Shown here: positions 2,330 to 46,593 of the stretch, piece after piece
Position numbering within the stretch: position 1 is the first letter of the stretch
Layout: the number at the start of each line of letters is the position of its first letter
Source: Chlorobiota bacterium
GTDB taxonomy: Bacteria; Bacteroidota; Ignavibacteria; OLB7
Assembly (NCBI GenBank): GCA_016788565.1
Contig: JAEUSP010000063.1
Location: 71,919-135,918 of the forward strand
Direction: 5' to 3'
DNA length: 64,000 bases
Notes under the pieces: model-generated
Told to the model about the DNA's origin: nothing
Databases searched by the model: none
What the model saw: only the letters and a program-made list of their open reading frames with translations
Made by a program: the position numbers and the translations under genes

Positions 2330-4267
2330 ATGAATCATCAATCGGCGCGGCGGCGGTTGTTCAACCGCAAGTTCAAGCTGTGGTTTTACGAGCGGCAGAT
2401 AAAAGAGGTTGAAGGACCTCACGGACAAGAAGGGCAACATCACCAACACCCCTGGTACAAAGTGATGTGCCTGACCGGTGTGGATTACTTCTCAACGCTT
2501 GGCTATCAACCTGGCATTGCGTTCCTTGCTGCTGGGTTCCTTTCGCCAATTGCAACCCTGATCCTAATCCTGCTGACGCTGTTCGGCGCGCTTCCGATTT
2601 ACAAGCGGGTTGCCGCGGCAAGCCCCCATGGCGAAGGCTCCATTTCGATGTTGGAAAACCTGCTTTCCCGCTGGAAGGGGAAGCTGTTTGTGTTGGTGCT
2701 GCTGGGGTTTGTGGCAACGGATTTCATCATCACCATCACCCTTTCGGCAGCCGATGCCACTGCGCACATTATCGAAAACCCGTTTGCCCCGCATTGGCTT
2801 GAGCATCCGGTGATTGTCACGCTGGTGCTGGTAACACTGCTTGGCGCGGTGTTCCTGAAAGGCTTCAAGGAAGCCATTGGAATGGCGGTGTTTCTGGTGG
2901 TGGCGTACCTGTTCCTGAACCTGATTGTGGTCAGCTACGGCATCTACGAAGTTGCCACCCATGCCACCGTGCTAAGCGATTGGACCAGCCACCTGTTTGA
3001 AACTCACGGCAATCCCTGGATGATGATCGGCCTTTCGCTGATCCTGTTCCCAAAACTTGCGCTTGGATTGTCCGGGTTCGAGACCGGCGTGGCGGTGATG
3101 CCACTGGTGAAAGGGGAAGATGGCGACACCTACAAAAAACCAACAGGGCGAATCCACAACACCCACAAACTGCTGATGTACGCAGCGTTGATTATGAGTG
3201 TGATGTTGCTGACCAGCAGCATCGTCACCACAACGCTGATCCCCCCCCAGGAATTCCAAGCTGGCGGCCAAGCCAACGGGCGCGCGCTGGCGTACTTGGC
3301 CCATAAATTTTTTGGCGATGGCTTCGGGACGCTCTACGACGTCAGCACCATTGCCATTCTCTGGTTCGCGGGCGCGTCGGCAATGGCGGGGCTGCTGAAC
3401 ATTGTTCCGCGCTACCTTCCGCGCTACGGCATGGCCCCGGAATGGGCGCGCGCCACCCGCCCGCTGGTGCTGGTTTATACCCTGATCGCTTTTGCCGTTA
3501 CCATCATTTTTAATGCCGACGTGAACGCGCAAGGGGGCGCGTATGCCACCGGCGTGTTGGTGCTGATGAGTTCCGCCGCGATTGCCGTCACGCTCTCCGT
3601 CTGGAAAAAAGGGAAAATCCGTTGGGCGTTTTTTCTGATCTCGCTGGTGTTTGGCTACACCACCATCGTCAATATCATCGAACGCCCCGAAGGCTTGAAA
3701 ATCGCTTCGTTCTTCATTCTTGCAATCGTCCTAAGCTCCCTCGTCTCCCGCGTGTTGCGCTCCACCGAACTTCGTGTTGAAGGGATTGAGCTGGACGATG
3801 CCGCAAGAAAGATCATCGAGGAGCTACGCGATGGTGATATCCGAGTTATCGCCAACCGCCGCGACCGTGGTGACGTTGAGGAATACCGATTTAAGGAGCA
3901 GGAAAAACGCGCCAACAATCATATTCCCGAAGATGACCCCGTGCTGTTTTTCGAGGTGATGCCCGGGGACGCTTCGGAGTTCACCGGAAAAATTAAAGTG
4001 AAAGGGAAGAAGATCGGGGAGTTCTCTGTGCTTCGCTGCCAAGCCCCTGCGGTGCCAAACGCCATTGCTGCGTTCCTGCTGCACGTTCGGAACAAAACCG
4101 GCAAAATCCCTCACGTCTATTTTGGCTGGACCGAAGGGAACCCTTTCAGCTACGTGCTTCGCTACATTGCCTTCGGCGAAGGGGACACCGCGCCAGTAAC
4201 CCACGAAGTGCTGCGCCAAGCCGAACACAACCCAAAACGCCGGCCCGCAGTGCATGTGGGAGGGTGA
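2330..4267 (+). CDS. Polytopic membrane permease (APC-superfamily-like, about 11-12 TM helices) with a C-terminal soluble domain of about 190 aa
   Basis: Long hydrophobic helices, a GFETG motif and an [17 protein letters not shown] segment. The start is uncertain: 2276 and 2330 (MNHQ) both precede the first TM helix, and an ATG at 2465 lies at the first helix. Confidence 0.5.
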
Positions 4268-15464: not shown

Positions 15465-17395
15465 TGAAACGAATCTACCTGCTAATCGCTGCTGCCGCAA
15501 TCTGCCTTGCCGGATGCAATATCTCCTATCGAACAATGTACTTTACCGAGTTCAAACCTGAAGATATAAACGTGGATAGCGTAAATATCCAAGAGTATGA
15601 AAAGAAGTATGGTAAGTATGATGGCGTTATCCTTCATAATGATTATTCGCTTGAACAGGCTTCAACGACCTTGCGTTCTTCTTATACACTTGTAAGAATG
15701 CGGTATATGGTTTTAAATCCTAACGCTCAATGGCTTACTACACTTAATCTGAATGTTGGCAGTGGAAGCCTTAATGAGGCATACGTGTACATTATTTATC
15801 CAAATGGTCAAAGAAAGAAGTTCGGGATTGATGATTTTATTTATGAGGTAAATAATGGAAAAGGAGTATATAAATTTGCTTATCCAGAAATAGTGAAGGG
15901 AACAATTATTGAAGAATCTTATGAAATAGAGCGATCTCTTGATTTCGTTATTAATCATAGCGCGGTGCTGCAATTCTCAATTCCTTGCGAATCAAATCAT
16001 TTTCAATGCGGTTCCCACTCACTTTGGGCTGTAAAATTAAAAACTGATAGCACGAAATTACCAGGACTTACTGTTGTAGATGATGAAGACTACAATAAAC
16101 AGATCGTCGAGTATCGTGGAACTAATATCCCTGCATACGTTGATGAACCATATTCCAGCTTGCAGCAAGAAAATATTCGAAAAATTGAATTTATGTACAC
16201 AACCCTAGCAGCAAGAAGGGCATATTGGTCGTCATCTTCTACTTGGGAAGAAATATCAAACAGATATGCTGAATGGGTGGTGCGTGAAGAACCTGACGAG
16301 GATTTAGCTGAAGAAGTTCAGGAAATTATCAAATCTGCTTCTGATGATGAAGCAAAACTACGTTCTATTGCCTCGCATGTTCAGCAGAACTACAAGCTTG
16401 TTAATTGGAGCAACAATGATATTGATGTCGTTTTTGAAAAAAAACGCGGAAGTGATGATGAGCTTTGCGCGCTAACACGGGAAATGCTTCAGGCCGCCAA
16501 CATCCCAGCAGAAATGGTTCATGTGCACTCTGCTTATGATGGCCAATTTGTTGAGTCCTATGTGAACATTTACGAAATCCGTAATCCTGCTGTATTGGTA
16601 ACCATTAAAGGAAATCAGTACATGGTGTTCCCTTATGTTAAAAATTACCCTGTTGATCTTATTCCACAACATCTTCAGGAACAGAAGGCTTTAGTGGTTC
16701 AGGAAGGTGAAAAGGCCAAATTCGTAACCACGCCAGCGGGCAGTATGGCGAACAACACCGTCACCGAACAGTATAAATTGAATATCAATGATGAAGGAGA
16801 AATTGAGGTGCAGGAAGAGAAAACTCTAACTGGGCAGGGCGCGTATCGGATACGTGAAATGCTAACAGAGATGAAAGCCGATGAGATTGATAAAGTTCTA
16901 AAAGAACTGCTAACCTACTCCGAAGGTGATGTCAAGATCGTCTCCCACGAAATAATTAACCAAAGTGATTACACCAAACCCCTAATCATAAAACTGGTGT
17001 ACAACATTGATAACCTTGTGACAGTGACACCAGATGAGGTGATCTTTCAGACAGGAGGGCTGTTCTCGCCATCCTCAAATGTGAAGACGAAGATTGATAC
17101 CGAGGAACGAGTAAACCCAATACGGATTTATTCGGATGAAAAGTATATTAAAAATATCAGCATTGAGTTCCCCAAAAACTGGGCACTGACCTCTACGCTG
17201 AAAAATCTTGAGAAGGAGAATGAGTTCGGTAAAATCAAGGGAGTTTATACTGTAAATCCTGGGAACATTCAAGTTGCGCAGGAGCGATTGCTACTAAAAT
17301 CCCACAAACCGAAGGAAATGATTGATGAGCTTCTGGAAATCACCGGAAGGAAGTCGCAGCTGTATATCCCTACAATGATTTTTAAGATCAATTAG
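15464..17395 (+). CDS. Lipoprotein paralog with a transglutaminase-like domain (low-GC island gene 2)
   Basis: Lipobox LAGCN. GSDDELCALTREMLQAANIPAEMVHV matches the transglutaminase-like core. The start overlaps the stop of the upstream gene (taATGa). Confidence 0.55.
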   Translation: MKRIYLLIAAAAICLAGCNISYRTMYFTEFKPEDINVDSVNIQEYEKKYGKYDGVILHNDYSLEQASTTLRSSYTLVRMRYMVLNPNAQWLTTLNLNVGSGSLNEAYVYIIYPNGQRKKFGIDDFIYEVNNGKGVYKFAYPEIVKGTIIEESYEIERSLDFVINHSAVLQFSIPCESNHFQCGSHSLWAVKLKTDSTKLPGLTVVDDEDYNKQIVEYRGTNIPAYVDEPYSSLQQENIRKIEFMYTTLAARRAYWSSSSTWEEISNRYAEWVVREEPDEDLAEEVQEIIKSASDDEAKLRSIASHVQQNYKLVNWSNNDIDVVFEKKRGSDDELCALTREMLQAANIPAEMVHVHSAYDGQFVESYVNIYEIRNPAVLVTIKGNQYMVFPYVKNYPVDLIPQHLQEQKALVVQEGEKAKFVTTPAGSMANNTVTEQYKLNINDEGEIEVQEEKTLTGQGAYRIREMLTEMKADEIDKVLKELLTYSEGDVKIVSHEIINQSDYTKPLIIKLVYNIDNLVTVTPDEVIFQTGGLFSPSSNVKTKIDTEERVNPIRIYSDEKYIKNISIEFPKNWALTSTLKNLEKENEFGKIKGVYTVNPGNIQVAQERLLLKSHKPKEMIDELLEITGRKSQLYIPTMIFKIN

Positions 17396-17430
17396 TTGTA
17401 GCGTTATCCAAATCCAGAAAGGATTGCGTA

Positions 17431-17466
17431 ACAGGGGGTGGCAATGGCCACCCCCTGTTGTTTTTC
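17431..17466. terminator. Bidirectional rho-independent terminator between convergent genes
   Basis: The hairpin acagggggtggcAATggccaccccctgt has an 11-bp GC-rich stem. It is followed by tgttttt and preceded by A-rich sequence. Confidence 0.8.
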
Positions 17467-17540
17467 AGGAAACATGAATGGAATCACCAAATAGGAACTT
17501 GCGCTGTTGCTCATGGTGCTTTATCACCAAATCTTCGCAA

Positions 17541-20378
17541 TTACCGCAAATCCAATTTCCTCACCGCTGCTGGCTGCTGCGGGGCGGCGGTTGTTGTGCC
17601 GAATGGGCGAATTGGGAAACGGTGAAACGAAAATGCCCCAACCCCGCGCCGGTTGACTATCCAAGGCCCTTCGTAAACAACGGATGTTCCGGCATACGAC
17701 TGGTCAGGGATGTAGCTGATCCGTGCGCCGGGATAGGAAGCGTTTAAATTCACCAGCACGGTATCGCCCAGCACCTGAACCGAACGAACTGCCTGCACGG
17801 TGTCATTCAGCAGAAATGCGTCACTCATGGTGCGGATGCTTCCGCCGATGGTGGCATCTGGAGTAACCAGCAACCCATGCTGGGCATTGCTAAACACAAG
17901 CGCGATTTGGTTCGATTCAGGAGTGGTGAACAATGCTGCTCGGATATTCGGCGAGCCAATATCCACTGTGTCGGTGGCCCCCAAAAAATCGCGGGCGAAT
18001 AATCGGAATAATTGCACGCCAATGGTGTCGTAGCCGGCGGCGGCGTAGTGGCAGCCATCGTGGCCAACAACGCCCATTGGCGAGTAGGTGACAACATCCG
18101 GGAAGCTGTCGGAAAGTGTGCGCTGAAGCTCGCGTAGTTCGCGGTGCGGCCCGGCAGCGCACCCCGGGCGAATTTGCACCACATACAGCTTCGTCAGTTG
18201 CGGGTAATCCTCCAGCCAATCGTTCCGCAACGCACGGAAGTTTGTGGCATAGTTGTTCACCGTGTTCGACTCACCCTGATACCACATCATTGCCCGCGCG
18301 TGCGCTGCCAGCCCAGATTTTTTTACGCGGTAGAGCATACTGCCGTAGATGGTGGAAAGCGTCTGCGGCGCGGCATCATTCCGTTGGTGCTGCTCGATAG
18401 CCGTTCCCCCAACCCCTCCATTGATAACGCAAAGTGGAACACCAGTTTCCTCCACGTACAGCCGCGCCAGCCGCATTCCCCACGCGCCAATGTTCGGGCC
18501 ACCGCCGGACCCAACTCCGCTTGCTACGGCCCAGAGCGTGTCGCGCTGGTTCTGCGAGAAATTCAAACCGTACGTCCGGCAGAACTCACTTTGCCCGGCA
18601 CCCTGGCCGCCATGCCCAAAAATGGAGTTCGATTGGCCGCAGATCAGCAGCACATCCCCGCAAGTAATGCTGTCGCGTGTGGCGATTACGCTATCTCGAG
18701 CGGCACCTCCATTGCCAGCCGCACGCAGCCTGACGGTAAAATGATATTCGGCAAGGGCCGCGGCAATGCGGGGCGCAAACGCGAACGGCGCGCTTCCGGC
18801 GGCGTACTGCAATGGGGCTGATAATCGCTCCCAACTGCTGTCGGCACGGGCAACTTCAACCACAATCGAATCCCACCCAGCAACGCGAACTATGCCAGTA
18901 ATCGGCACACTTGCCAAATTATCGTCCCCCCGTGGGAACAGTTGAAGCGGTGCGGGAATTGCGGTGAATGTTGAGTCCGGTTTTGGGGGAGCGGGGGGGA
19001 TGGGAATGCCATATTTGCGGAAAAGATACTCCTCGGTTCGCGCCCGCTCGCTGGGGGAAAGCTCACGGCGGTAAAGGATCACTTCGGCAATATCCCCCAC
19101 CAGCACGTTCCCCCCCTGAAATGCTCCCAAGTAGATTATGGAATCCAAGTTTTGCGGAACAGTTGCGCTGTCGGCAGCGTGGCTGTTGATGAAGAACGCG
19201 ACCCTGCGGCGCGCATCCTGATAGGCCATCGTGACAACCGAAAATTCCCCTTGCTGCACCGGAATGGAAGCCACCGCCTGTGCGTTGAAATCGCCATGCA
19301 GCACTTTGGCGTACTCTGCCCCGCCAAACCAGTGGGCGTGGGTGATGCCGGAGACGACGTTGTTGTTTGCGTTCAGGTTGTTCAATCGCACCACAAACGT
19401 CAGGGTGTAATCGGAGCGAGTTGGGAAGACTGAGGTTGCTTGCATGAAATTTCCGGCCCCGGCGAACCGGACTGCGGGAAGGTTAAATCGGGCGTTTGGC
19501 AGCAACACTGGTTGCCACTGAGCCGAGTCTTGCCAGGCGGAATAATTATTTCCGCTGCAATCGTTCCAGCGCGTCACCTTGCCATCGGCGGCTGGGGTGG
19601 TGATGCCGCTATCAGCCTTCAGCCAAAGGAGTGGTTTTTCGGCAGGGGTGGAGTAGGGGAGTGGGACGGGAACGCGATACCGCGCTATCCAGCTTGATTG
19701 CAGGCCCGATACCTCCGTTGGTGTTAGCACACGATCAAAGATGACCGCCTCGGCAATATCGCCGGTTAAAAAATTGGCTTGAGCATAAGCCCCTAAGTAG
19801 ATTGCCGGATCGGTGTTTGCAGGAACTTGGGCTGTGTCGGCAGCAAAACCGTTGATGATGATTGTTGCCGTGCGGGATGATTCGGTGTAGGTCACCACCG
19901 CAACGTTCATTGCACTCGTCACGGCGATGGCAGCGGTTGCTTGCTGGCTGAAGTTTCCGCTGTGCAGCACTTTCAGATATGGCACCCCGCCGAAGTAGTG
20001 CGCACGGTTGTTCCCCGAGATCACGTTGTTTGAGGTCCCGTATGAGTTCACCCGAACAGCAAACGCCACGGTGTAATCGCTCCCAACCGGGAAGACGGCT
20101 GAAGCCGTCATGTACTGTGCCCCGTTGAACCGGATTGCTGGCTGGCCCCCAGCCACATTCTGGATACGCTGCGGTTGCCTTTCGGTTTGGTTCTGCACGG
20201 CATCGTTGTTGTTGCCGCTGATGTCCTTCCATCGGGCAACAGCCCCGCCAACAATCACCACCCCGCTATCGGCACGAAAATGGAGTAACGAGCCGCTGGG
20301 AACTTGAGCAAGAAGCTGGGCCGCAAGCCCCAGAAAAAAGCTAATCAGCAGAATGGAGAAGGTTGTGAATCGCTGCAT
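17541..20378 (-). CDS. Large secreted protein: 3x LamG/concanavalin-like lectin repeats plus a SASA (sialate O-acetylesterase-like, SGNH) domain
   Basis: A signal peptide. The LamG-like motif GDIAEAVIFDRVLTPTEV occurs three times. The SASA motifs LLICGQSNSIFG and MMWYQGESN are present. There is no T9SS C-terminal domain. Confidence 0.55.
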   Translation of the reverse strand: MQRFTTFSILLISFFLGLAAQLLAQVPSGSLLHFRADSGVVIVGGAVARWKDISGNNNDAVQNQTERQPQRIQNVAGGQPAIRFNGAQYMTASAVFPVGSDYTVAFAVRVNSYGTSNNVISGNNRAHYFGGVPYLKVLHSGNFSQQATAAIAVTSAMNVAVVTYTESSRTATIIINGFAADTAQVPANTDPAIYLGAYAQANFLTGDIAEAVIFDRVLTPTEVSGLQSSWIARYRVPVPLPYSTPAEKPLLWLKADSGITTPAADGKVTRWNDCSGNNYSAWQDSAQWQPVLLPNARFNLPAVRFAGAGNFMQATSVFPTRSDYTLTFVVRLNNLNANNNVVSGITHAHWFGGAEYAKVLHGDFNAQAVASIPVQQGEFSVVTMAYQDARRRVAFFINSHAADSATVPQNLDSIIYLGAFQGGNVLVGDIAEVILYRRELSPSERARTEEYLFRKYGIPIPPAPPKPDSTFTAIPAPLQLFPRGDDNLASVPITGIVRVAGWDSIVVEVARADSSWERLSAPLQYAAGSAPFAFAPRIAAALAEYHFTVRLRAAGNGGAARDSVIATRDSITCGDVLLICGQSNSIFGHGGQGAGQSEFCRTYGLNFSQNQRDTLWAVASGVGSGGGPNIGAWGMRLARLYVEETGVPLCVINGGVGGTAIEQHQRNDAAPQTLSTIYGSMLYRVKKSGLAAHARAMMWYQGESNTVNNYATNFRALRNDWLEDYPQLTKLYVVQIRPGCAAGPHRELRELQRTLSDSFPDVVTYSPMGVVGHDGCHYAAAGYDTIGVQLFRLFARDFLGATDTVDIGSPNIRAALFTTPESNQIALVFSNAQHGLLVTPDATIGGSIRTMSDAFLLNDTVQAVRSVQVLGDTVLVNLNASYPGARISYIPDQSYAGTSVVYEGPWIVNRRGVGAFSFHRFPIRPFGTTTAAPQQPAAVRKLDLR

Positions 20379-39511: not shown

Positions 39512-42004
39512 GTGAACATGGCAAAAAAAACGACCACTGTTTCAGCTATTGTTTCCGATACCGCCTCGGTTCCCCCAGTCTCTTCTGGGGATTGCGACAC
39601 CACCACCACCACCACCACATTCCAATTCCCGTTCAACACGGTTCTCAGCTTCGCACCGCTGATTGAGTACGCCAACCAGAATTTCGGCGGGGAACGCTCC
39701 AGCCTTCGCTCGCTGGTTGCTGAACTGAACCAGCGGTTATCGGCATCGCCGCAGCTGCAAGAACCGATCGAGGACCTTTCACTGCTTGACCAGCACCGCG
39801 AAAGCGTGGATTGGCTGATGTCCATGGTCTTCCCGCCAGCGTTGTGGGATCAAGATTATTCCATGGCGATTGCCCCCTTCAAACTTGCCCCGTTTTACTC
39901 CACCCCAGCGTTTCGGCGGACATTTCTTCAGGGGGGGAACGGTGAAAAATTAGCTCAGGAATTTGCCAACGAAGCCAAGATTCGCTACCGTGCGATTGCT
40001 GCGTATGTGAAAATTGCCCGGCAGTTTTTCAACTTCACGATTGACTTTCCTGGCCTATCGCTAAAGGCTTCTGCATCCGATCCAGAAAGTGGCACAAGTC
40101 GGTACTACCGGTTTACGTTCGATATGCGGTTCATCCGCTTTGTTCCAACCGGACCGCTTCCGGAACTCACCGACCAGCAACGCCAGCAAATCCTCTACAA
40201 TCTTACCGATCTGGAGACTTGGCAGTCCATTATTCCCCCCGACCTGTTCCGGATTGAAGGCTTTGTGCTGATTAACGCCACCGATATCAGCGACAATGAG
40301 TTTGTTGGCGTGCTGGAACGTGAGCTTGTCGAAAGTAGCAGCAGCATCCTGGCGATGGAAGGTTTCCAACGGCTTCAGCAGATTATCCGGGCGTATCTGC
40401 GGCAGAAAGATTTGGTGCTGGGATTGGTGGCAATTGATGGCGATACCATCATGGTGCTGAACTACGGCGCACAGTTGCCAAATGGCCAACCCAAAACTTG
40501 CTTGCTCAATCAATCCTATCACTTCCTCCGCAGCCAGCTTGCCGGATCCACCATCGAGCAGGCGTTGCTGAACGGCAAACCGCAAGTGATTGAAGATGTG
40601 CTTCAGCTTCCCACACCACGCGCAGCCGGCGATGAAGCGCTGATCGGAAAGGGATTCCGCAGCGCGTACTTTGCGCCGCTGAACTACAACGGCGCGTTGA
40701 TTGGCGCTCTGAACATTTACTCACCCAACGCAGGCGACCTGACCGAACTGAACACCCTGAAACTGACCAACCTTCTCCCGCTATTTTCGATGGTGGTTCG
40801 CCGCAGTTTGGCGGATATGGAGAACCAGGTGCAAGCGGTGATTCGCCAGCAGTACACGGCGGTGCATCCGTCGGTGGAGTGGAAGTTCCGCGAAGCCGCA
40901 AAAGGGTTTCTCACCCGCCAGGGAATGGTTGCCGAAAACCAGATTGAGCCGATTGTTTTCCACGATGTTTACCCACTGTTCAGCGTCAGCGATATTCGCG
41001 GGTCATCGGATCACCGCAACCAAGCCATTCAGCAAGATTTAATCGAGCAACTCAGCCTAGCTTGGGGGGTGTTGGATTCCGCACGCGCCGCGCGCCAGCT
41101 TCCAATTCTGGATCACCTTCTGTTCCGGGTTCACGATAAAATTGCCCACATCGAATCAGGGTTGCATTCCGGTGATGAAGCCGGGGTGTTGGATTTTTTG
41201 CGCCACGAAGTTGAGTCGTTGTTTAGCCACATCGGCGATTTTGGCCCAGCCGTTGCCCAGCGGATTGATGACTACAACGCAACGCTGGACCCTGAAATCA
41301 AAGCGGTCTATCAGAAGCGAAAAGAGTTTGAGGAGAGCGTCACGGCAATCAATCGGGTGATTGCTGCATTTGTGGAATCGGAGGAGGAGCGGGCGCAGGG
41401 GATGTTCCCCCACTACTTTGAAAAACACCAAACCGACGGCGTTGATTTTGGCGTGTATGTTGGCCAATCGTTGGTGAACGACCGCCAGTTCAGCGACCTG
41501 TACCTTCGCAATTTGCGGCTGTGGCAACTGCTGGTGATGTGCGGCGCGGCGCGCTTGGCCAACGAAGTAAAATCCACCCTCACCGTCCCGTTGGACACCA
41601 CGCATCTTGTGCTGGTGCAAACCACACCGCTCTCGATCAGCTATCGTTTGGATGAAAAGCAGTTTGATGTTGATGGAGCCTACAACATCCGCTACGCAAT
41701 TATGAAAAAGCGGATTGACAAAGCGGAAATTAAGGGAACGGGGGAGCGGCTAACCCAGCCCGGGAAATTGGCCATCGTCTATTCCCAACCGCGCGAGGCG
41801 CAGGAGTACCGGCAGTATCTGGAATACCTGGTTGCCAGCCGGATGATTGAGCCAGAGATTGAAGACCTTGACCTTGACGACCTGCAAGGCGTTCACGGCC
41901 TGAAGGCGTTACGGGTGAACGTGGTGCTGCAACGTGCCGCCGGTGATGTTGAAGTTCCAGAAGCCATCGAGCGTGCGATTCGGGAGTTTTCGGAAGGGGG
42001 GTGA
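39512..42004 (+). CDS. Large cytoplasmic GAF-domain-containing protein of unknown function
   Basis: A GAF-like segment (..LVLGLVAIDGDTIMVLNYG ... EALIGKGFRSAYFAPLNYNGALIGALNIYSPNAGDL). No kinase, HD or GGDEF motif recognised. The last 12 codons lie in a 62-bp sequence that is duplicated at 44543. Confidence 0.45.
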   Translation: MNMAKKTTTVSAIVSDTASVPPVSSGDCDTTTTTTTFQFPFNTVLSFAPLIEYANQNFGGERSSLRSLVAELNQRLSASPQLQEPIEDLSLLDQHRESVDWLMSMVFPPALWDQDYSMAIAPFKLAPFYSTPAFRRTFLQGGNGEKLAQEFANEAKIRYRAIAAYVKIARQFFNFTIDFPGLSLKASASDPESGTSRYYRFTFDMRFIRFVPTGPLPELTDQQRQQILYNLTDLETWQSIIPPDLFRIEGFVLINATDISDNEFVGVLERELVESSSSILAMEGFQRLQQIIRAYLRQKDLVLGLVAIDGDTIMVLNYGAQLPNGQPKTCLLNQSYHFLRSQLAGSTIEQALLNGKPQVIEDVLQLPTPRAAGDEALIGKGFRSAYFAPLNYNGALIGALNIYSPNAGDLTELNTLKLTNLLPLFSMVVRRSLADMENQVQAVIRQQYTAVHPSVEWKFREAAKGFLTRQGMVAENQIEPIVFHDVYPLFSVSDIRGSSDHRNQAIQQDLIEQLSLAWGVLDSARAARQLPILDHLLFRVHDKIAHIESGLHSGDEAGVLDFLRHEVESLFSHIGDFGPAVAQRIDDYNATLDPEIKAVYQKRKEFEESVTAINRVIAAFVESEEERAQGMFPHYFEKHQTDGVDFGVYVGQSLVNDRQFSDLYLRNLRLWQLLVMCGAARLANEVKSTLTVPLDTTHLVLVQTTPLSISYRLDEKQFDVDGAYNIRYAIMKKRIDKAEIKGTGERLTQPGKLAIVYSQPREAQEYRQYLEYLVASRMIEPEIEDLDLDDLQGVHGLKALRVNVVLQRAAGDVEVPEAIERAIREFSEGG

Positions 42005-42030
42005 GGTGCGGAAAAGTGAGTGAGTGCCGT
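41969..42030. repeat. Left copy of a roughly 62-bp direct repeat bracketing the RM cassette
   Basis: gagcgtgcgattcgggagttttcggaagggggtgaggtgcggaaaagtgagtgagtgccgt compared with 44543..44606 (one SNP and one 4-nt indel). Confidence 0.85.
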
Positions 42031-42106
42031 CTGCCACTTGTTGTTTCGGCAGACAACTGACGGACGCGGAAGAAATTAGGTTAGGATTACAACCGGAGAG
42101 AACGGA

Positions 42107-43591
42107 TTGCAGCCAGACATTGAACAGACCCGGTTGCGGGTATCCAGAGAGACAAACGCCACGAAGAAGGCACAATTCGGCCAATTCCTTACGCCACAAC
42201 GGATTGCGGCTTTTATGGCAAGCCTGTTCCCGCCCGCCGGGGGAATCTGCCGTTTGTTGGATGCGGGGGCTGGCATTGGTTCGCTTTCTGCAGCGTTTCT
42301 GGAGCGGTGGCGTGCTGGCAATTTTCAATTTCAGCGCGTCGAGCTTGACGCATTCGAGGTAGATGATTCCTTGCACGCTGAGTTATCGCGAACATTCTTG
42401 CAGTATCGAAGCGAATCATTCAGCCTGCATCTTCATGGTGATGACTTCATCCACGCCGCAGTGAGCGCGCTTTCCGGCGGACTTTTTTCAAAGGCACTGC
42501 AGGGGTACAGCCACGCCATACTCAATCCGCCGTACAAAAAAATCAATAGCACGTCGGCGCACCGTTTGGTACTGCGTGAGATTGGGATTGAGGCGGTCAA
42601 TCTTTACTCAGCTTTTGTTGCGTTATCGCTGGCACTTGTTATTCCGGGCGGGCATATCGTTGCAATCATTCCACGCAGTTTCTGCAACGGGCCATACTAC
42701 CGTCCATTCCGTGATTCCATTCTTCGCCAATCGGCTATCCGTCACCTCCATTTGTTCAACTCGCGCAGCAAGGCGTTCAAGGATGATGATGTTTTGCAGG
42801 AGAATATCATCATTCTGTTGGAACGTGGTGGCCGCCAGGAATCGGTGACTGTTTCAACTTCGACCGATGATACTTTCGCTGATCTGACCCAGCACAACTA
42901 TCCGTTCAGCCGGATTGTCTCCCCCGATGATTCAGAGCGATTCATTCATGTCCCCACCTCACCTGCACCAACTTCCCTTGAGTTATTGCCGGCGATTCGG
43001 CACACCCTTGCTGATGTTGGCATCAGCGTATCAACCGGGCCCGTGGTTGATTTCCGAGTAAAGGATCACCTGCGCGATATGCCAGGATCAAGCACTGTGC
43101 CGATGCTGTACCCCTGCCACTTCATTGGGCAAAGTATCCGATGGCCGATTGAGGGAATGAAGAAGCCCAACGCAATCGAGCGCAACTCTGCTACTGAAAA
43201 ACTGCTCTATCCAATCGGGTTTTATTGCTTGGTGCGGCGTTTCTCTGCCAAAGAAGAATCACGCCGCATCGTTGCAAGCGTTGTTGAGCCAGCCACGTTT
43301 GGCCAGGCATCCATGCTCGGCTTGGAGAATCACGTGAACGTCTTCCATGAGGATAAACAGGGGTTGCCGGAGCCATTGGCTCGCGGGTTGGCTCTGTTCC
43401 TGAACACAACCGCTGTTGACCAGCAGTTTCGGCAGTTCAATGGCCATACCCAAGTCAATGCCGCCGATCTGAAGTTGATGAAATATCCAAGCCGCAACGC
43501 CCTGATCCAACTTGGCTTGTGGGCAATGCAGCAAAAGGAAGCACCCACGCAAGCCCAGATTGATTCCACGTTAGAAACCCTGGCCGAATGA
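42107..43591 (+). CDS. Gamma-class N6-adenine DNA methyltransferase (Eco57I/M.BsuBI-M.PstI-like) of a type II RM system
   Basis: Motif I LLDAGAGIGSLS and motif IV NPPYKK, in gamma-class order. Length 494 aa is similar to M.BsuBI/M.PstI. A 4-bp ATGA overlap joins it to the downstream endonuclease gene. Confidence 0.75.
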   Translation: MQPDIEQTRLRVSRETNATKKAQFGQFLTPQRIAAFMASLFPPAGGICRLLDAGAGIGSLSAAFLERWRAGNFQFQRVELDAFEVDDSLHAELSRTFLQYRSESFSLHLHGDDFIHAAVSALSGGLFSKALQGYSHAILNPPYKKINSTSAHRLVLREIGIEAVNLYSAFVALSLALVIPGGHIVAIIPRSFCNGPYYRPFRDSILRQSAIRHLHLFNSRSKAFKDDDVLQENIIILLERGGRQESVTVSTSTDDTFADLTQHNYPFSRIVSPDDSERFIHVPTSPAPTSLELLPAIRHTLADVGISVSTGPVVDFRVKDHLRDMPGSSTVPMLYPCHFIGQSIRWPIEGMKKPNAIERNSATEKLLYPIGFYCLVRRFSAKEESRRIVASVVEPATFGQASMLGLENHVNVFHEDKQGLPEPLARGLALFLNTTAVDQQFRQFNGHTQVNAADLKLMKYPSRNALIQLGLWAMQQKEAPTQAQIDSTLETLAE

Positions 43592-44544
43592 GTACCAACA
43601 CAAAGCGCGATCCTCTGAAGGAAGCTGAGCACATCCTTGCTTTGTTAGGGCTGCCTGTGGTGCAGCAGAACGAACGCTCCGCGCTTTGCCTGCTCTCTCT
43701 GTTGGACCTTCGTCCGGGTAAGGCTTGGAACAAGGCAAGGAACCCACTACTGGGGATCACCCCGATGATGGACTGGATGCGCAAGCACTACAACAAGGAT
43801 TACGCGCCAAACACCCGCGAAACAGTGCGTCGCCAGACCATGCACCAGTTTGTGGCTGCTGGGATTGCCCTGTACAATCCCGACAATCCTGACCGTCCGG
43901 TGAACAGCCCAAAAGCTGCTTACCAGATAGAGCCTGCCACACTTGCTTTGCTACGCAGTTTTGGCACCAAGCAATGGCACAGTAATCTGGTAAATTACTT
44001 GGCGATGCGCCAGACGCTGGTTGCCCGTTACGCCAAAGAACGCCAGCAAAGCCGCGTGCCGGTCAAAATTGCACCGGGTAAACAGATTACCCTAAGCCCC
44101 GGTAAACATAGCGAGCTGATTCGGGCAATCATCGAAGACTTCGCCCCACGTTTTGCGCCGGATAGTCTGCTGGTGTATGCCGGTGATACTGGCGACAAAT
44201 GGGGGTACTTCGATGCGGAGCTATTCCAAGAGTTGGGACTTACGGTTGATCCCCACGGCAAAATGCCCGATGTGGTGTTGTATTACGCACACAAAAACTG
44301 GTTGCTACTGGTGGAGTCCGTCACCAGCCACGGGGCAGTTGATGGGAAACGCCATGCAGAGCTTACCAAACTGTTTGCTGGATCACGGGTTGGTTTGGTG
44401 TATGTCACTGCTTTCCCAAACCGAGCTACTCTCAGCCGCTACTTGGGCGAAATTGCATGGGAAACTGAGGTGTGGATTGCTGATGCGCCTTCTCACCTGA
44501 TTCATTTTAATGGATCGCGCTTCTTGGGGCCATATCCTGCATGA
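43588..44544 (+). CDS. Type II restriction endonuclease, BsuBI/PstI family (probable)
   Basis: 318 aa, translationally coupled to the methyltransferase in the same M-then-R order as BsuBI. The family assignment is from overall length and organisation plus remembered similarity, not a search. Confidence 0.55.
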   Translation: MSTNTKRDPLKEAEHILALLGLPVVQQNERSALCLLSLLDLRPGKAWNKARNPLLGITPMMDWMRKHYNKDYAPNTRETVRRQTMHQFVAAGIALYNPDNPDRPVNSPKAAYQIEPATLALLRSFGTKQWHSNLVNYLAMRQTLVARYAKERQQSRVPVKIAPGKQITLSPGKHSELIRAIIEDFAPRFAPDSLLVYAGDTGDKWGYFDAELFQELGLTVDPHGKMPDVVLYYAHKNWLLLVESVTSHGAVDGKRHAELTKLFAGSRVGLVYVTAFPNRATLSRYLGEIAWETEVWIADAPSHLIHFNGSRFLGPYPA

Positions 44545-44606
44545 GCGTGCGATTCGGGAATTTTCGGAAGGGGGATGAGAGGTGCGGAAAAGTGAGTGAG
44601 TGCCGT
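44543..44606. repeat. Right copy of the direct repeat bracketing the RM cassette
   Basis: See 41969..42030. The endonuclease stop codon (44542-44544) sits at the repeat boundary. Confidence 0.85.
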
Positions 44607-44618
44607 TCCCAGATATGT

Positions 44619-44734
44619 TATACTCCAAACAGAGTGGTTTGCGAAAAACTCAATCACTGTCATTCCCGCGAAAGCGGGAATCCATAGCGCACCTGGCTGA
44701 GTAGATTTTCGCAAGTCAATTTGCGCCGAGTATA
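44619..44734. mobile_element. MITE-like repeat, copy 2 (116 bp), immediately after the RM cassette
   Basis: About 95% identical to 202..317, with the same TIRs and GAAA hairpin. Confidence 0.7.
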
Positions 44735-44823
44735 ATCAACAGACAGCCTTCTGCAATTCGTTGAAAAATTGCAGAAGGCTGTGCTCTCTCTCCCTACTCA
44801 CTCTTCCCGTGATTTTTCTCTGT

Positions 44824-46593
44824 CTATTCCCCGTCCTCGGCCAACTCACCGTACCACAGCTGCTGCATCTCATCGCTGCCGGCCAGCAGTTCATCCAGCG
44901 TCCCTTCCGATGCAATGCGGCCATCTTTCAGCAGGATGATGTGGTCGGCACGTTGCAGCGCGGCGCGGCGGTGCGATGCCACAAGGCAGGTTGCCTCTCG
45001 CTGCTGGAAAATCTGCTCCCACAACGTCCGCTCGGTTTCCACATCCAGCGCGCTGGAAAGGTCGTCGAAGACGTACAACTCCGGTTGCAACGCAAACATT
45101 CTTGCGGCTGCGGTTCGCTGCATCTGCCCGCCAGATAGCTTCACCCCGCGTGGACCAACGGTGGTTTGCAGGCCCTGCTCCAGCAACCGCAAGTCGTGCT
45201 CCATCACTGCAAGGTGGATTGCCTCGGCCACTTGGTCGGCAGGCATTGGTTGCCCCAGTGTGATGTTGTCCAGCAACGTATCGCTGAACAATCGCGGGGT
45301 CTGCGGTGTGTATGCCGTCCGTGGCGGCGACATGAAAATGGCTGGGTCCTGCACCGGTTTTCCGTTCCAGTATATCTCCCCGTTGTCGCGCGGGAGCAAC
45401 CCCAGCAGGACTTTCAGCAACGTGGTTTTCCCCGCACCAATCCGCCCGGTGATAACCGTGAAGGAACCACGCCGCACCCGCAAGGAAATATCCTCAATCC
45501 CACGCCCAGTATCTGGATGCTGGTAAGATAGGCCCACCCCTTCCAGCGTGTAGAGCTTGTGCCGTGTGCCACGGGTGATGGGGGTAACGTCCGGCAGCGT
45601 ATCGTGCAGATAGACCGGCGCGTGTTCCATCAACTTCTCTACGGGCGCGTTCTGCATCAGCTCGTTCATCCGCTCCACCGAAACCCCAGCGCGGCGATAT
45701 TCGGAGATCATGTTCCCCACAAACCTCATGCTTCCGCTGATGCGCCCCAGGTAGATCACGAACAACGCAAAATCCCCCACGGTGAACGCTCCCGTCCGCA
45801 TTGTTTGGCTGGCCAGCAGCAGAACAATCCCAATCCCGATGTTCGCCATGTTCTCATTGACGCTGTTGATTAACTCACGCGAGAGGGTGTCCTTCAGTGC
45901 CGCGCCGCGCCGGACCTCGTTCAGTTTTGCGAAGTGATTCATCATCTGCTCTTCTGCCGCCGCCACCTTCACGGTTCCAACGGCGTTGAACGTCTCGCCG
46001 ATGAACGAAGTCACCCTTCCGGTTGCTTGGCGGTGTGCGCGGCGGTATTTGCGGGTGCGCCCACCCATGCGGTAGCTGAAGTAGCTGATCACCGCCAGCG
46101 GGGCCAACGCAACCAGCGTCATCTGGGTGTTGATCGTGGCCATGATGATGATGCTGATGACCAGCGACACAATGAACCCGGTGGCATCGGTTCCCGATTC
46201 CACAAAGCCCATCACATCCTCAACGTCGTCGCGGAAACGGTTGACGGCTTCGCTGGGTGAGTCCTTCAGCCGGCGCGCGCCGGGGCCTTGCACCAACCAC
46301 TCCAACATATTCCGGCGCATCAACGCCTCGATGGTGTACAGAAAGGTGGACCAAGCGTGGATGCCAAGCCGCATCACCCCAAGCCGCGCCCCGGTTGCCA
46401 CCACCAGCAAGGCAAGCAGTGTCCATAAACCAAGCTCGGCTGGGCGTTGCCCGCTTAACGTGTCGAAAATTGCTTTGGTGATAAGCCCAAAGAAAATCGG
46501 GGCACTGTGAAAAAGCCCCCAGCACAGGCAGTTCAGCGCGAACAGCCAGGGGCGGTAGCGGATGAACCCAATGATGTATGTTCCAGTTGTCAT
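44824..46593 (-). CDS. ABC exporter permease/ATPase subunit (type I exporter, canonical site)
   Basis: Six N-terminal TM helices. Walker [10 protein letters not shown], signature LSGGQMQR, Walker [13 protein letters not shown]. Confidence 0.85.

What the first reader, a model, noticed from the sequence alone, without database searches (positions are those of the whole stretch)
41969..44734. Type II RM cassette (gamma-class N6A MTase plus BsuBI/PstI-like REase) inserted at the 3' end of a gene, bracketed by ~62-bp direct repeats, with a MITE copy abutting it
The 62-bp sequence containing the last 12 codons and stop of the 830-aa GAF protein gene (..IERAIREFSEGG*) is repeated immediately after the endonuclease gene. 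There it supplies that gene's C-terminus and stop (..HERAIREFSEGG-like reading; stop at the repeat edge). The 2.5-kb segment between the repeats is exactly the M and R genes (ATGA-coupled). This matches RM gene complexes as mobile units that insert with long target duplications or between pre-existing repeats. A 116-bp MITE copy lies 13 bp beyond the right repeat. No integrase or transposase is present.
Basis: partly seen in the sequence, partly recalled or inferred. Interest (0 to 1): 0.6.

Follow-up and report, generated by a model that had tools for sequence, protein, structure and literature searches.

The report
PstI-type restriction-modification cassette flanked by repeats
A two-gene restriction-modification defence cassette sits just after a conserved gene and is bracketed by a 62-bp repeat of that gene's end, a known signature of mobile restriction systems, but related genomes show that the cassette is much older than the repeat.

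Summary
A 62/64-bp direct repeat (41969-42030 and 44543-44606) contains the last 36 nt of the GAF gene plus 26 nt downstream. It brackets a 2.5-kb unit: a 76-nt leader, a gamma-class m6A methyltransferase (42107-43591) and a BsuBI/PstI-family endonuclease (43588-44544), ATGA-coupled. A 117-bp MITE lies 11 bp beyond the right repeat. One detail is wrong: the repeat gives R only the last two bases of its stop codon, not a C-terminus.

The enzymes are 63% (M) and 75% (R) identical to the E. coli EcoGIII-type system, so the predicted site is CTGCAG.

No empty-site allele was found. Every contig of the species carries the cassette. Two sister lineages (L025, L197) carry it at the same site with no repeat. 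Its synonymous divergence (dS 0.72-0.85) is similar to that of the flanking genes (0.47-0.57), whereas 80 other homologues are saturated. So the cassette predates the nearly intact repeat.

The right junction lies in imperfect microhomology, which suggests a later illegitimate-recombination event. The most likely one is re-installation into an RM-free sibling chromosome.

Six of 54 unrelated homologous cassettes also carry locus-specific flanking repeats; controls gave 0 of 84.

[quoted passage not shown] Interest is modest.

The parts
39518..42004 (+). GAF-domain protein gene (828 aa from the ATG; 830 aa from GTG 39512). It is the target or anchor gene, and its last 36 nt form the coding part of the repeat.
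   Evidence: ORF. Weak Pfam GAF_2/GAF hits. An identical 828-aa product is called in 30 blocks of public assemblies. Orthologues follow BipA in relatives.
41969..42030 (+). Left direct repeat (62 bp): GAF codons ERAIREFSEGG, the stop, and 26 nt of downstream non-coding DNA.
42031..42106 (+). Leader between the left repeat and M. Positions 42031-42075 are specific to the window lineage and hold a small hairpin, TCTGCC..GGCAGA. From about 42076 on, including the RBS GGAGAG at 42095-42100, the leader is shared with the L025/L197 cassettes. No terminator or sigma-70-like promoter was detected.
42107..43591 (+). M gene: gamma-class N6-adenine DNA methyltransferase of 494 aa with a TTG start. Motif X FGQFLTP, motif I LLDAGAGIG, motif IV NPPY. 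Predicted product CTGC(m6A)G.
   Evidence: Homologues align from residues 1-6. It is 63% identical to the E. coli EcoGIII-type M.
43588..44544 (+). R gene: BsuBI/PstI-family Type IIP restriction endonuclease of 318 aa. Its ATG overlaps the M stop (ATGA). Its TGA stop straddles the edge of the right repeat.
   Evidence: It is 75% identical to the E. coli EcoGIII-type R.
44543..44606 (+). Right direct repeat (64 bp). It differs from the left copy by two substitutions, both synonymous in the GAF frame (GAG>GAA, GGG>GGA), and a 2-bp insertion just after the former stop. It begins in a patch of microhomology with the 3' flank of R seen in relatives.
44618..44734 (.). MITE-like element (117 bp) with terminal inverted repeats TTATACTC..GAGTATAA. 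It is multi-copy, and short-read contigs of the species break inside it.
   Evidence: (I1).
44743..44782 (.). Perfect 16-17-bp stem hairpin. It is the likely bidirectional terminator for the GAF-M-R transcript and for the convergent ABC operon.
   Evidence: I10; z = -6.9.
44824..46593 (-). Convergent ABC transporter gene (589 aa), first of a pair. It is the downstream neighbour only in this lineage.

Best explanation
What it is (shown): an intact PstI/BsuBI/EcoGIII-type Type IIP restriction-modification operon. M is a gamma-class m6A methyltransferase. R is a BsuBI/PstI-fold endonuclease.

How the operon works (inferred):
- The predicted specificity is CTGCAG. M would methylate the adenine and R would cut unmethylated sites.
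- R translation is probably coupled to M through the ATGA overlap.
- The cassette has its own RBS. No promoter or terminator was detected between the GAF stop and M, so it is probably transcribed by read-through from the GAF gene and terminated at the hairpin at 44743-44782.

History (shown by comparison): the cassette already lay directly after the GAF gene before the window species split from the L025/L197 lineage. Those genomes have it at the same site, in the same orientation, without any repeat.

Origin of the repeat (inferred): the 62/64-bp repeat arose later, in the window lineage only. The 3' flank of R was joined by illegitimate recombination, at an imperfect microhomology, to codon 818 of a window-lineage GAF allele. 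Relatives read TAGGGCGTGGGCGAT after R. GAF reads TCGAGCGTG--CGAT.

The simplest route is re-installation. A GAF-tail-M-R segment from an RM-bearing sibling entered an RM-free sibling chromosome whose GAF gene ran straight into the terminator and the convergent ABC operon. This could happen by homology-facilitated illegitimate recombination. It could also happen by single-crossover integration of a circularised fragment.

That route yields a left repeat from the donor allele and a right repeat from the recipient allele. [quoted passage not shown]

Consequence (inferred): the repeats now allow precise RecA-dependent excision, which would leave an intact GAF gene, or tandem amplification.
For: RM identity:
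-.
- M is 63% and R 75% identical over their full lengths to the E. coli Stx-prophage system. Close homologues of that system are reported to methylate and cut CTGCAG (PMC6602927).

The cassette is old at this site:
- L025 and L197 show BipA-GAF-M-R with identical junctions and no flanking repeat.
- Between window and L025, pS is 0.47 (M) and 0.51 (R), giving dS 0.72 and 0.85. The flanking genes give dS 0.47 (BipA) and 0.57 (GAF).
- All 80 other homologues are saturated (pS 0.69 or higher).
- M is 81% identical to the L025 M and at most 70% identical to any other.
- A sliding-window pS scan shows no step between GAF and RM.

The repeat is young and lineage-specific:
- It differs by only 2 substitutions and 1 indel in 62 nt, with 26 of 26 non-coding positions identical.
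- By contrast, non-coding DNA between window and L025 cannot be aligned.
- The right copy carries the window-type states (T at repeat position 6, G at position 24, codons GGG GGR TGA), not the L025 states.

Junction and flank:
- The microhomology is visible.
- Both substitutions between the copies are synonymous in the GAF frame. The right copy has the derived GAA where all four lineages have GAG. This is what two functional alleles would show.
- The right copy is followed by a strong terminator shared with a convergent operon, which looks like a natural gene end. There is no terminator between GAF and M.

Mobility:
- No mobility genes lie nearby.
- The family is horizontally mobile. Homologues about 77% identical occur across phyla and on plasmids.
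- Six of 54 other loci have locus-specific flanking repeats of 27 to about 170 bp, against 0 of 54 and 0 of 30 in two controls.
Against: - No RM-free sibling allele (GAF tail, 26 bp, MITE, ABC) was found, so the proposed recipient is hypothetical.
- The same structure could come from other routes: an ancient target duplication kept alike by gene conversion, or a tandem duplication followed by deletion.
- Two synonymous substitutions are weak evidence. The chance probability is roughly 0.06 if the right copy drifted freely.
- The similarity 'GCGTG..CGAT' in L025/L197 could instead be a relic of a lost right repeat rather than the substrate of a later joining.
- The promoter scan covers only sigma-70-type sites. 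The source is labelled 'Chlorobi bacterium', and the scan may not apply to it, so co-transcription with GAF is only an inference.
- Enzyme activity and specificity were not measured.
Confidence: 0.5

Rival explanations
1. The repeat is the original footprint of the cassette's insertion. On this view the cassette entered the common ancestor of the window and L025/L197 lineages with a 62-bp target duplication. Gene conversion has since kept the two copies alike in the window lineage. The L025/L197 lineage lost the right copy, and part of the left flank, in later rearrangements.
For: - The architecture fits the published class exactly.
- L025/L197 keep 'GGGCGTGGGCGAT' right after the R stop, which could be the first 11-13 nt of a former right repeat.
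- The downstream neighbour differs in every lineage, so rearrangements here are frequent.
Against: - With dS of about 0.6-0.8 between the lineages, a free-drifting 64-nt copy should carry roughly 15-20 changes. It has 3.
- The right copy carries the window-specific GAF C-terminal codons and a 26-nt non-coding tail that L025/L197 lack.
- Conversion between 62-bp tracts 2.5 kb apart has to be assumed. There is no evidence for it.
Confidence: 0.2
2. The repeat arose by in-situ tandem duplication and then partial loss. Unequal exchange between sister chromosomes, at the microhomology between the R flank and the GAF tail, duplicated the segment GAF-tail-M-R. A second deletion or rearrangement, possibly linked to the adjacent MITE, removed the second M-R copy and brought in the ABC locus. 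This left a solo 64-bp copy.
For: - The microhomology at the junction.
- RM units flanked by repeats are known to amplify (Furuta 2010 discussion).
- The MITE lies 11 bp from the end of the repeat, and the locus is a synteny breakpoint.
Against: - It needs two independent events with an arbitrary second breakpoint.
- The 11 nt after the right copy do not match the sequence after the left copy.
- It does not explain why both differences between the copies are synonymous.
- No contig shows a tandem state.
Confidence: 0.12
3. The 62-bp repeats are attL/attR of a site-specific recombination event. A tyrosine or serine recombinase encoded elsewhere would have acted in trans, as for a satellite island.
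For: - Direct repeats at the 3' end of a gene are typical of integrase-made islands.
- One homologous unit (L166) sits at the 3' end of tRNA-Arg with a 35-bp repeat.
Against: - No recombinase lies within about 10 kb in the window or next to L166.
- The left edge of the right copy coincides with a microhomology to the R flank of relatives rather than with a conserved core site.
- The repeats of the seven repeat-flanked loci share no sequence.
- The cassette exists at the same site without repeats in sister lineages.
Confidence: 0.05
4. The repeat is a chance similarity or an assembly artefact.
For: None beyond the general risk in metagenome assemblies.
Against: - The flank comparison gives E = 3e-22, with 0 matches in 100 shuffles.
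- The identical structure appears in independent ENA, NCBI and Logan assemblies from many samples.
Confidence: 0.01

Closest known systems
[quoted passage not shown] 2000; Furuta, Abe and Kobayashi 2010, NAR 38:2428, PMC2853133). An example is the Haemophilus influenzae 86-028NP Type II system NTHI1459/1460, with 46-bp repeats that overlap the 3' end of a gene.
   Same: - An R+M-only insert of a few kb.
- No transposase or integrase.
- A locus-specific direct repeat longer than 30 bp that overlaps the 3' end of the upstream gene and so leaves that gene intact.
   Different: - No empty-site genome is available here.
- Sister lineages carry the same cassette at the same site without the repeat, so the repeat post-dates the first arrival of the cassette.
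- The right junction shows imperfect microhomology.
EcoGIII / PstI / BsuBI Type IIP RM systems (CTGCAG), with SdaI (CCTGCAGG, PDB 2ixs) as the structural relative.
   Same: - Both BsuBI/PstI endonuclease domains.
- A gamma-class m6A MTase of about 490 aa.
- M then R in tandem.
- 63% (M) and 75% (R) identity to the E. coli Stx-prophage system. CTGC(m6A)G methylation is reported for that enzyme type.
   Different: - The location is chromosomal, downstream of a housekeeping-type gene in an uncultured bacterium labelled 'Chlorobi bacterium'. In E. coli the system sits in a lambdoid prophage immunity region, and elsewhere on small plasmids.
- Specificity was not measured here.
Homology-facilitated illegitimate recombination during natural transformation (de Vries and Wackernagel 2002; Prudhomme et al. 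2002).
   Same: One end is anchored by homology (BipA-GAF). The other end is joined at a short GC-rich microhomology. No dedicated recombinase is needed.
   Different: - Those experiments are recalled as giving mostly insertion-deletions. A duplication of recipient sequence, as needed here, is my inference.
- Competence of this organism is unknown.
Amplification of RM units flanked by long direct repeats (cited as ref. 84 in PMC2853133).
   Same: An RM unit bracketed by direct repeats that could support unequal crossing-over or excision.
   Different: The repeats here are only 62 bp. No amplified or excised form was seen in any contig.

Membership tests
Type IIP RM system of the PstI/BsuBI/EcoGIII family | Endonuclease with the BsuBI/PstI N-terminal HTH domain and C-terminal catalytic domain | tested here: met
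   Pfam PF17728 at 6e-54 and PF06616 at 1e-62, both full length. SdaI 2ixs at 1.6e-77. PADLOC REase_II at 6e-152.
Type IIP RM system of the PstI/BsuBI/EcoGIII family | Adjacent gamma-class N6-adenine MTase (motif order X, I, IV NPPY, with a C-terminal target recognition domain) | tested here: met
   FGQFLTP at residues 24-30, LLDAGAGIGSL at 50-60 and NPPY at 140-143 in the translation. Pfam Eco57I. PADLOC MTase_II at 1e-196 over 8-487 of 494. The M stop and R start overlap.
Type IIP RM system of the PstI/BsuBI/EcoGIII family | Recognition of CTGCAG with m6A methylation and cleavage | not testable with these tools
   Inferred from 63% (M) and 75% (R) identity to the E. coli EcoGIII-type pair and the literature. 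Site counts are uninformative: CTGCAG O/E of 0.35 equals the median of all 6-bp palindromes.
[quoted passage not shown] | Both R and M homologues lie inside the repeat-bounded segment, which is shorter than 20 kb | tested here: met
   The 2,512 bp between the repeats hold only the leader, M and R.
[quoted passage not shown] | Direct repeat longer than 30 bp that is not a dispersed repeat family | tested here: met
   The repeat is 62/64 bp. It has exactly two copies in the 64-kb window and includes single-copy coding sequence. Whole-genome copy number could not be tested.
[quoted passage not shown] | No linked mobility gene | tested here: met
   The Pfam listing of called genes within about 10 kb on either side shows no integrase or transposase.
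[quoted passage not shown] | A related genome with the empty site: one copy of the repeat, contiguous with both flanks | tested here: not met
   - All contigs of the species carry the cassette.
- The sister lineages L025 and L197 carry the cassette without the repeat.
- The RM-free relatives L026-L029 have GAF followed by an HtrA-like gene.
- ABC loci of relatives are never next to GAF.
- Absence in the data searched is not proof of absence.
Integrase-mediated genomic island | Tyrosine or serine recombinase within or next to the repeat-bounded unit | tested here: not met
   None is present.
MITE (the element at 44618-44734) | Short, non-coding, with terminal inverted repeats, and multi-copy | tested here: met
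   Terminal inverted repeats (I1). Two copies about 94% identical in the window. Hairpin z = -5.8. Contigs break inside it. No target-site duplication was resolved.

The most novel reading that the evidence does not exclude
The PstI/EcoGIII-family M-R pair may be a recombinase-free mobile unit in its own right. On this reading it repeatedly lands at the 3' ends of genes or tRNAs and creates locus-specific duplications of 27 to about 170 bp. Seven of 55 surveyed loci in unrelated organisms show such repeats, against 0 of 84 controls. The movement would run through breaks made or provoked by its own endonuclease, followed by microhomology-mediated repair. The window locus would then be a re-homing event of that process. 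The set of natural junctions found here would make the long-unexplained mechanism of 'long target duplication' directly testable.
Probability: 0.15. Interest if true: 0.65.

Novelty: new member of a known kind. Interest (0 to 1): 0.35.

Why it matters
[quoted passage not shown] The mechanism behind them is still unknown.

This locus adds a case outside the usual model bacteria. It also adds something the catalogues seldom have: sister lineages with the same cassette at the same site but no repeat. That separates the age of the cassette from the age of the repeat. It also exposes a microhomology at the junction, which points to illegitimate or homology-facilitated recombination rather than a transposase-like staggered cut.

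The side survey gives a small natural series for one highly conserved RM family (6 of 54 homologous cassettes with unrelated, locus-specific flanking repeats).

For annotation purposes the region is simply a probably active CTGCAG-type RM system next to a MITE.

Tried and rejected
1. Empty site within the species. Exact-protein look-ups of GAF, R and ABC returned 20 or more contigs. All are 99.9-100% identical and all carry the cassette. Short contigs simply break in the MITE.
2. Genome-collection scan with GAF. It returned only relatives at 49% identity or less and missed the clade, so it gave no useful context.
3. ABC-side search for a GAF-ABC adjacency. Relatives at 89-94% identity have a Por-secretion-tail gene, enolase or a contig end next to ABC, never GAF.
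4. Test for a recombination mosaic. Sliding-window synonymous divergence across BipA-GAF-M-R against L025 and L027 shows no step.
5. CTGCAG avoidance as evidence of specificity or residence time. O/E is 0.35, but the median for all 6-bp palindromes is also 0.35, so the test is uninformative.
6. RM remnants in RM-free relatives. None were found.
7. RNA explanations for the repeat or leader. There are no Rfam hits in the whole window, and neither repeat copy nor the leader folds better than shuffles.
8. The L017 contig. It leaves the window sequence inside the left repeat (at 41983) and runs into 117 bp of 38% GC DNA. That sequence matches nothing in the window or the fetched loci (only two chance 14-nt matches) and nothing in viral contigs. 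It cannot be told apart from an assembly chimera.
9. Pre-existing dispersed repeat. Rejected, because the repeat contains single-copy coding sequence and has only two copies.
10. E. coli genomes as a source of empty-site comparisons for this family. There the system sits in the lambdoid prophage immunity region, so it says nothing about the repeat mechanism.

Full report
**The observation**

The window contains a direct repeat at 41969-42030 (62 bp) and 44543-44606 (64 bp). The two copies differ by two substitutions and one 2-bp indel. Each half of the repeat occurs exactly twice in the 64-kb window, and 100 dinucleotide-preserving shuffles gave no matches.

The left copy is the last 11 codons and the stop of an 828/830-aa GAF-domain ORF (..ERAIREFSEGG*), plus 26 nt of downstream DNA.

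Between the copies lie three things:
- a 76-nt leader with the RBS GGAGAG at 42095-42100;
- a 494-aa ORF starting at TTG 42107;
- a 318-aa ORF at 43588-44544, whose ATG overlaps the previous stop (ATGA).

R ends ..GPYPA, with TGA at 44542-44544.

Eleven bases beyond the right copy lies a 117-bp element with terminal inverted repeats (44618-44734). A second, roughly 94% identical copy sits at 201-317, and the element folds as a hairpin with z = -5.8. A perfect hairpin terminator follows at 44743-44782 (z = -6.9), and then a convergent ABC transporter pair.

GC content does not set the cassette apart. GC3 is a little lower in M and R (0.58-0.59) than in BipA and GAF (0.64-0.66).

**What the genes are**

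R carries both BsuBI/PstI endonuclease domains over their full length (1e-62 and 6e-54). It matches the SdaI crystal-structure sequence at 1.6e-77 and a PADLOC REase_II model at 6e-152.

M hits Pfam Eco57I and a PADLOC MTase_II model end to end (1e-196). Its translation shows FGQFLTP, LLDAGAGIGSL and NPPY in that order, followed by a long C-terminal region. That is the gamma-class arrangement. Homologues align from residues 1-6 of the 494-aa form, which supports the TTG start over the shorter ATG call used by some pipelines.

The pair is 63% (M) and 75% (R) identical over full length to the M-R pair in the immunity region of E. coli Stx prophages. For that enzyme type (EcoGIII and 99%-similar copies in strains 95JB1 and 95NR1, both among my hits), methylation and cleavage of CTGCAG are reported (PMC6602927). 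The predicted specificity is therefore CTGCAG. This is an inference, not a measurement.

Site counting does not help. CTGCAG is under-represented (9 observed, 25.7 expected, O/E 0.35), but that equals the median for all 6-bp palindromes in this window. Non-palindromic hexamers have a median of 1.00.

**Distribution in the species and in relatives**

Exact-protein look-ups found the cassette in the same context in an NCBI MAG (GCA_044224645.1, labelled 'Chlorobi bacterium'), in three ENA assemblies and in many Logan assemblies. The 5.5 kb around it is 99.9-100% identical everywhere, both repeat copies included. Short contigs end inside the MITE. No empty-site allele was seen.

The closest GAF orthologues, at 77-82% amino-acid identity, fall into two groups:
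- L025 (GCA_020850315.1) and L197 have BipA-GAF-M-R followed immediately by a convergent TPR gene. They have no flanking repeat, and only 6 nt plus the shared leader separate the GAF stop from M.
- L026 and L027-L029 have BipA-GAF followed by an HtrA-like protease gene, with no trace of M or R.

Pairwise synonymous divergence makes window and L025 the closest pair. Their dS is 0.47 for BipA and 0.57 for GAF, against 0.61-1.6 to the others.

**Age of the cassette and age of the repeat**

The R family is unusually conserved. Thousands of homologues at about 77% identity occur across phyla, and some are on small plasmids. Amino-acid identity alone therefore says little.

Synonymous sites do discriminate. 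Window against L025 gives pS 0.47 (M) and 0.51 (R), that is dS 0.72 and 0.85. All 80 homologous loci fetched from metagenomes are saturated (pS 0.69 or higher). M is 81% identical to the L025 M and at most 70% identical to any other. A sliding-window scan shows no discontinuity from GAF into M and R.

Taken with the identical position and orientation, this means the cassette was already downstream of GAF before the two lineages split.

The repeat is much younger:
- It has 3 differences in 62 nt, and 26 of 26 non-coding positions are identical.
- Non-coding DNA between the lineages cannot be aligned.
- The right copy carries the window-specific states of the GAF tail (T at repeat position 6, G at position 24, codons GGG-GGR-TGA) and not the L025/L197 states.

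So the repeat is not the scar of the cassette's first arrival at this locus, unless gene conversion has kept the copies alike.

**The junctions**

Right after the R stop, L025 and L197 read TAG GGCGTGGGCGAT. The GAF tail reads ATC GAGCGTG--CGAT. The window reads T GAGCGTGCGAT, so the new R stop codon (TGA) is a hybrid formed at this point. This imperfect microhomology of 11 of 13 positions is where the 3' flank of R was joined to codon 818 of GAF.

The two substitutions between the copies are both synonymous in the GAF frame. The right copy has GAA where the left copy and all four lineages have GAG, and the only indel lies just after the stop. That is the pattern expected if the two copies come from two functional GAF alleles, although with two substitutions the evidence is weak.

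The right copy is followed by 11 nt, the MITE, 8 nt and then the strong shared terminator. With the MITE removed, this looks like a natural gene end facing a convergent operon. No terminator lies between the GAF stop and M.

**Best explanation and rivals**

My preferred reading (about 0.5) is a secondary, recombination-made duplication. A GAF-tail-M-R segment from an RM-bearing sibling was installed into an RM-free sibling chromosome. It was anchored by homology on the BipA-GAF side. It was joined at the microhomology on the other side, or integrated as a circularised fragment by a single crossover in the 62-bp homology. Either route yields a donor-type left repeat and a recipient-type right repeat. 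This is a concrete mechanism for the published class 'insertion with long target duplication'.

The rivals are:
- an ancestral target duplication homogenised by conversion and lost in L025/L197 (about 0.2);
- an in-situ tandem duplication followed by deletion, perhaps MITE-associated (about 0.12);
- a recombinase acting in trans (about 0.05);
- an artefact (about 0.01).

The hypothetical RM-free allele was not found. Relatives' ABC loci sit next to other genes.

**Comparison with what is known**

[quoted passage not shown] R and M lie inside an insert under 20 kb. The duplication is over 30 bp. No other mobile element is linked. An empty-site genome is available for comparison. They report cases in which the repeat overlaps the 3' end of a gene, for example 46-bp repeats in H. 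influenzae. They state that the mechanism is unknown and may involve double-strand breaks, and that such units can amplify (PMC2853133).

The window meets every criterion except the empty site.

**Survey of homologous cassettes**

I compared 500-bp flanks of 54 other M-R units of this family. Six have significant direct repeats bracketing the unit: L135 (115 bp), L115 (126 bp), L130 (63 bp core, about 170 bp in all), L167 (48 bp, perfect), L166 (35 bp) and L119 (27 bp). Controls gave 0 of 54 mismatched flank pairs and 0 of 30 shifted pseudo-units. The repeats share no sequence with one another.

They derive from local sequence:
- the 3' end of tRNA-Arg(CCT) in L166, with no integrase nearby;
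- the inside of lpxB, 100 bp before its stop, in L167;
- the 3' part of an ATP-grasp gene on the opposite strand in L115.

In L167 the native lpxB C-terminus follows the left copy, not the right one. A simple staggered-cut target duplication does not predict this. It fits better with import of a gene-tail-plus-RM segment.

**Verdict**

This is a real, probably active CTGCAG-type RM operon with a real flanking repeat of the upstream gene's end. It is a new member of a known kind.

The added value is threefold. The cassette is older than the repeat. The junction lies in microhomology. Locus-specific flanking repeats recur in this RM family. Interest is modest (0.35).

Noticed in passing
window 1-64000: The window shows extreme general avoidance of 6-bp palindromes. 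The median observed/expected ratio is 0.35 for the 47 palindromes with an expectation of 5 or more. It is 1.00 for 3,442 non-palindromic hexamers (5th percentile 0.58). Examples: GGCGCC 0 observed / 24 expected, AAGCTT 1/23, ATCGAT 0/11, TGATCA 1/18, GAGCTC 0/8. Among 4-mers, CTAG is 9/61 and GATC 166/370. This suggests a long history with many restriction systems.
   Followed up: partly
window 44618-44734 and 201-317: A 117-bp MITE-like element with terminal inverted repeats TTATACTC..GAGTATAA and a central GTCATTCCCGCGAAAGCGGGAATCCA stem. Two copies in the window are about 94% identical. Logan contigs of the species end inside it, so it is multi-copy in the genome. Its core was found only in loci of the same species.
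   Followed up: partly
L017:7996-8112 (ERZ27258486 k141_1418928), joined to window 41983: One assembly leaves the window sequence inside the left repeat and continues into 117 bp of unrelated 38% GC DNA at the contig end. That sequence matches nothing in the window or the fetched loci beyond two chance 14-nt matches, and nothing in viral contigs. It is either an assembly chimera or a variant left junction of the cassette.
   Followed up: partly
L166:435-511 and 3139-3173: A homologous 2.66-kb M-R unit sits at the 3' end of tRNA-Arg(CCT) and is flanked by a 35-bp repeat of the tRNA 3' end. There is no integrase in the unit, and the next gene is a molybdopterin oxidoreductase.
   Followed up: partly
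L167:1085-1132 and 3710-3757: A homologous M-R unit starts 2 bp after the lpxB stop and is bracketed by a perfect 48-bp repeat that lies inside lpxB, 100 bp before its stop. The native lpxB C-terminus follows the left copy. A simple target-site duplication does not predict this.
   Followed up: partly
L189:2227-4101 and L191:38-1909: In relatives, the orthologous ABC transporter pair is preceded by a GmrSD-type (Type IV) restriction gene and a small GAF protein. The neighbourhood of this ABC locus seems to collect defence genes.
   Followed up: no
L001 vs L002, about 5.6 kb beyond the ABC pair (locus coordinates about 16450-18700): Two assemblies of the same species are identical through the cassette but differ further downstream. 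One has a BatA/VWA gene where the other has a TPR-GerE regulator gene.
   Followed up: no
L205:3875-7102 (E. coli O157:H7 chromosome) and plasmid hits H1-H12: The same RM family (75-77% identical R) sits in the immunity region of lambdoid Stx prophages in 140 of 5,426 complete E. coli genomes. It also occurs on small plasmids, some carrying qnrS2, in Aeromonas, Pseudomonas and Citrobacter. PADLOC also holds an 840-aa fused M-R model of this family.
   Followed up: partly
L130:3821-4717 and L119:2703-3104: Other repeat-flanked copies of the cassette lie next to a SMODS (CBASS-type) gene and a PemK/MazF toxin gene, that is, in defence or toxin-antitoxin islands.
   Followed up: no
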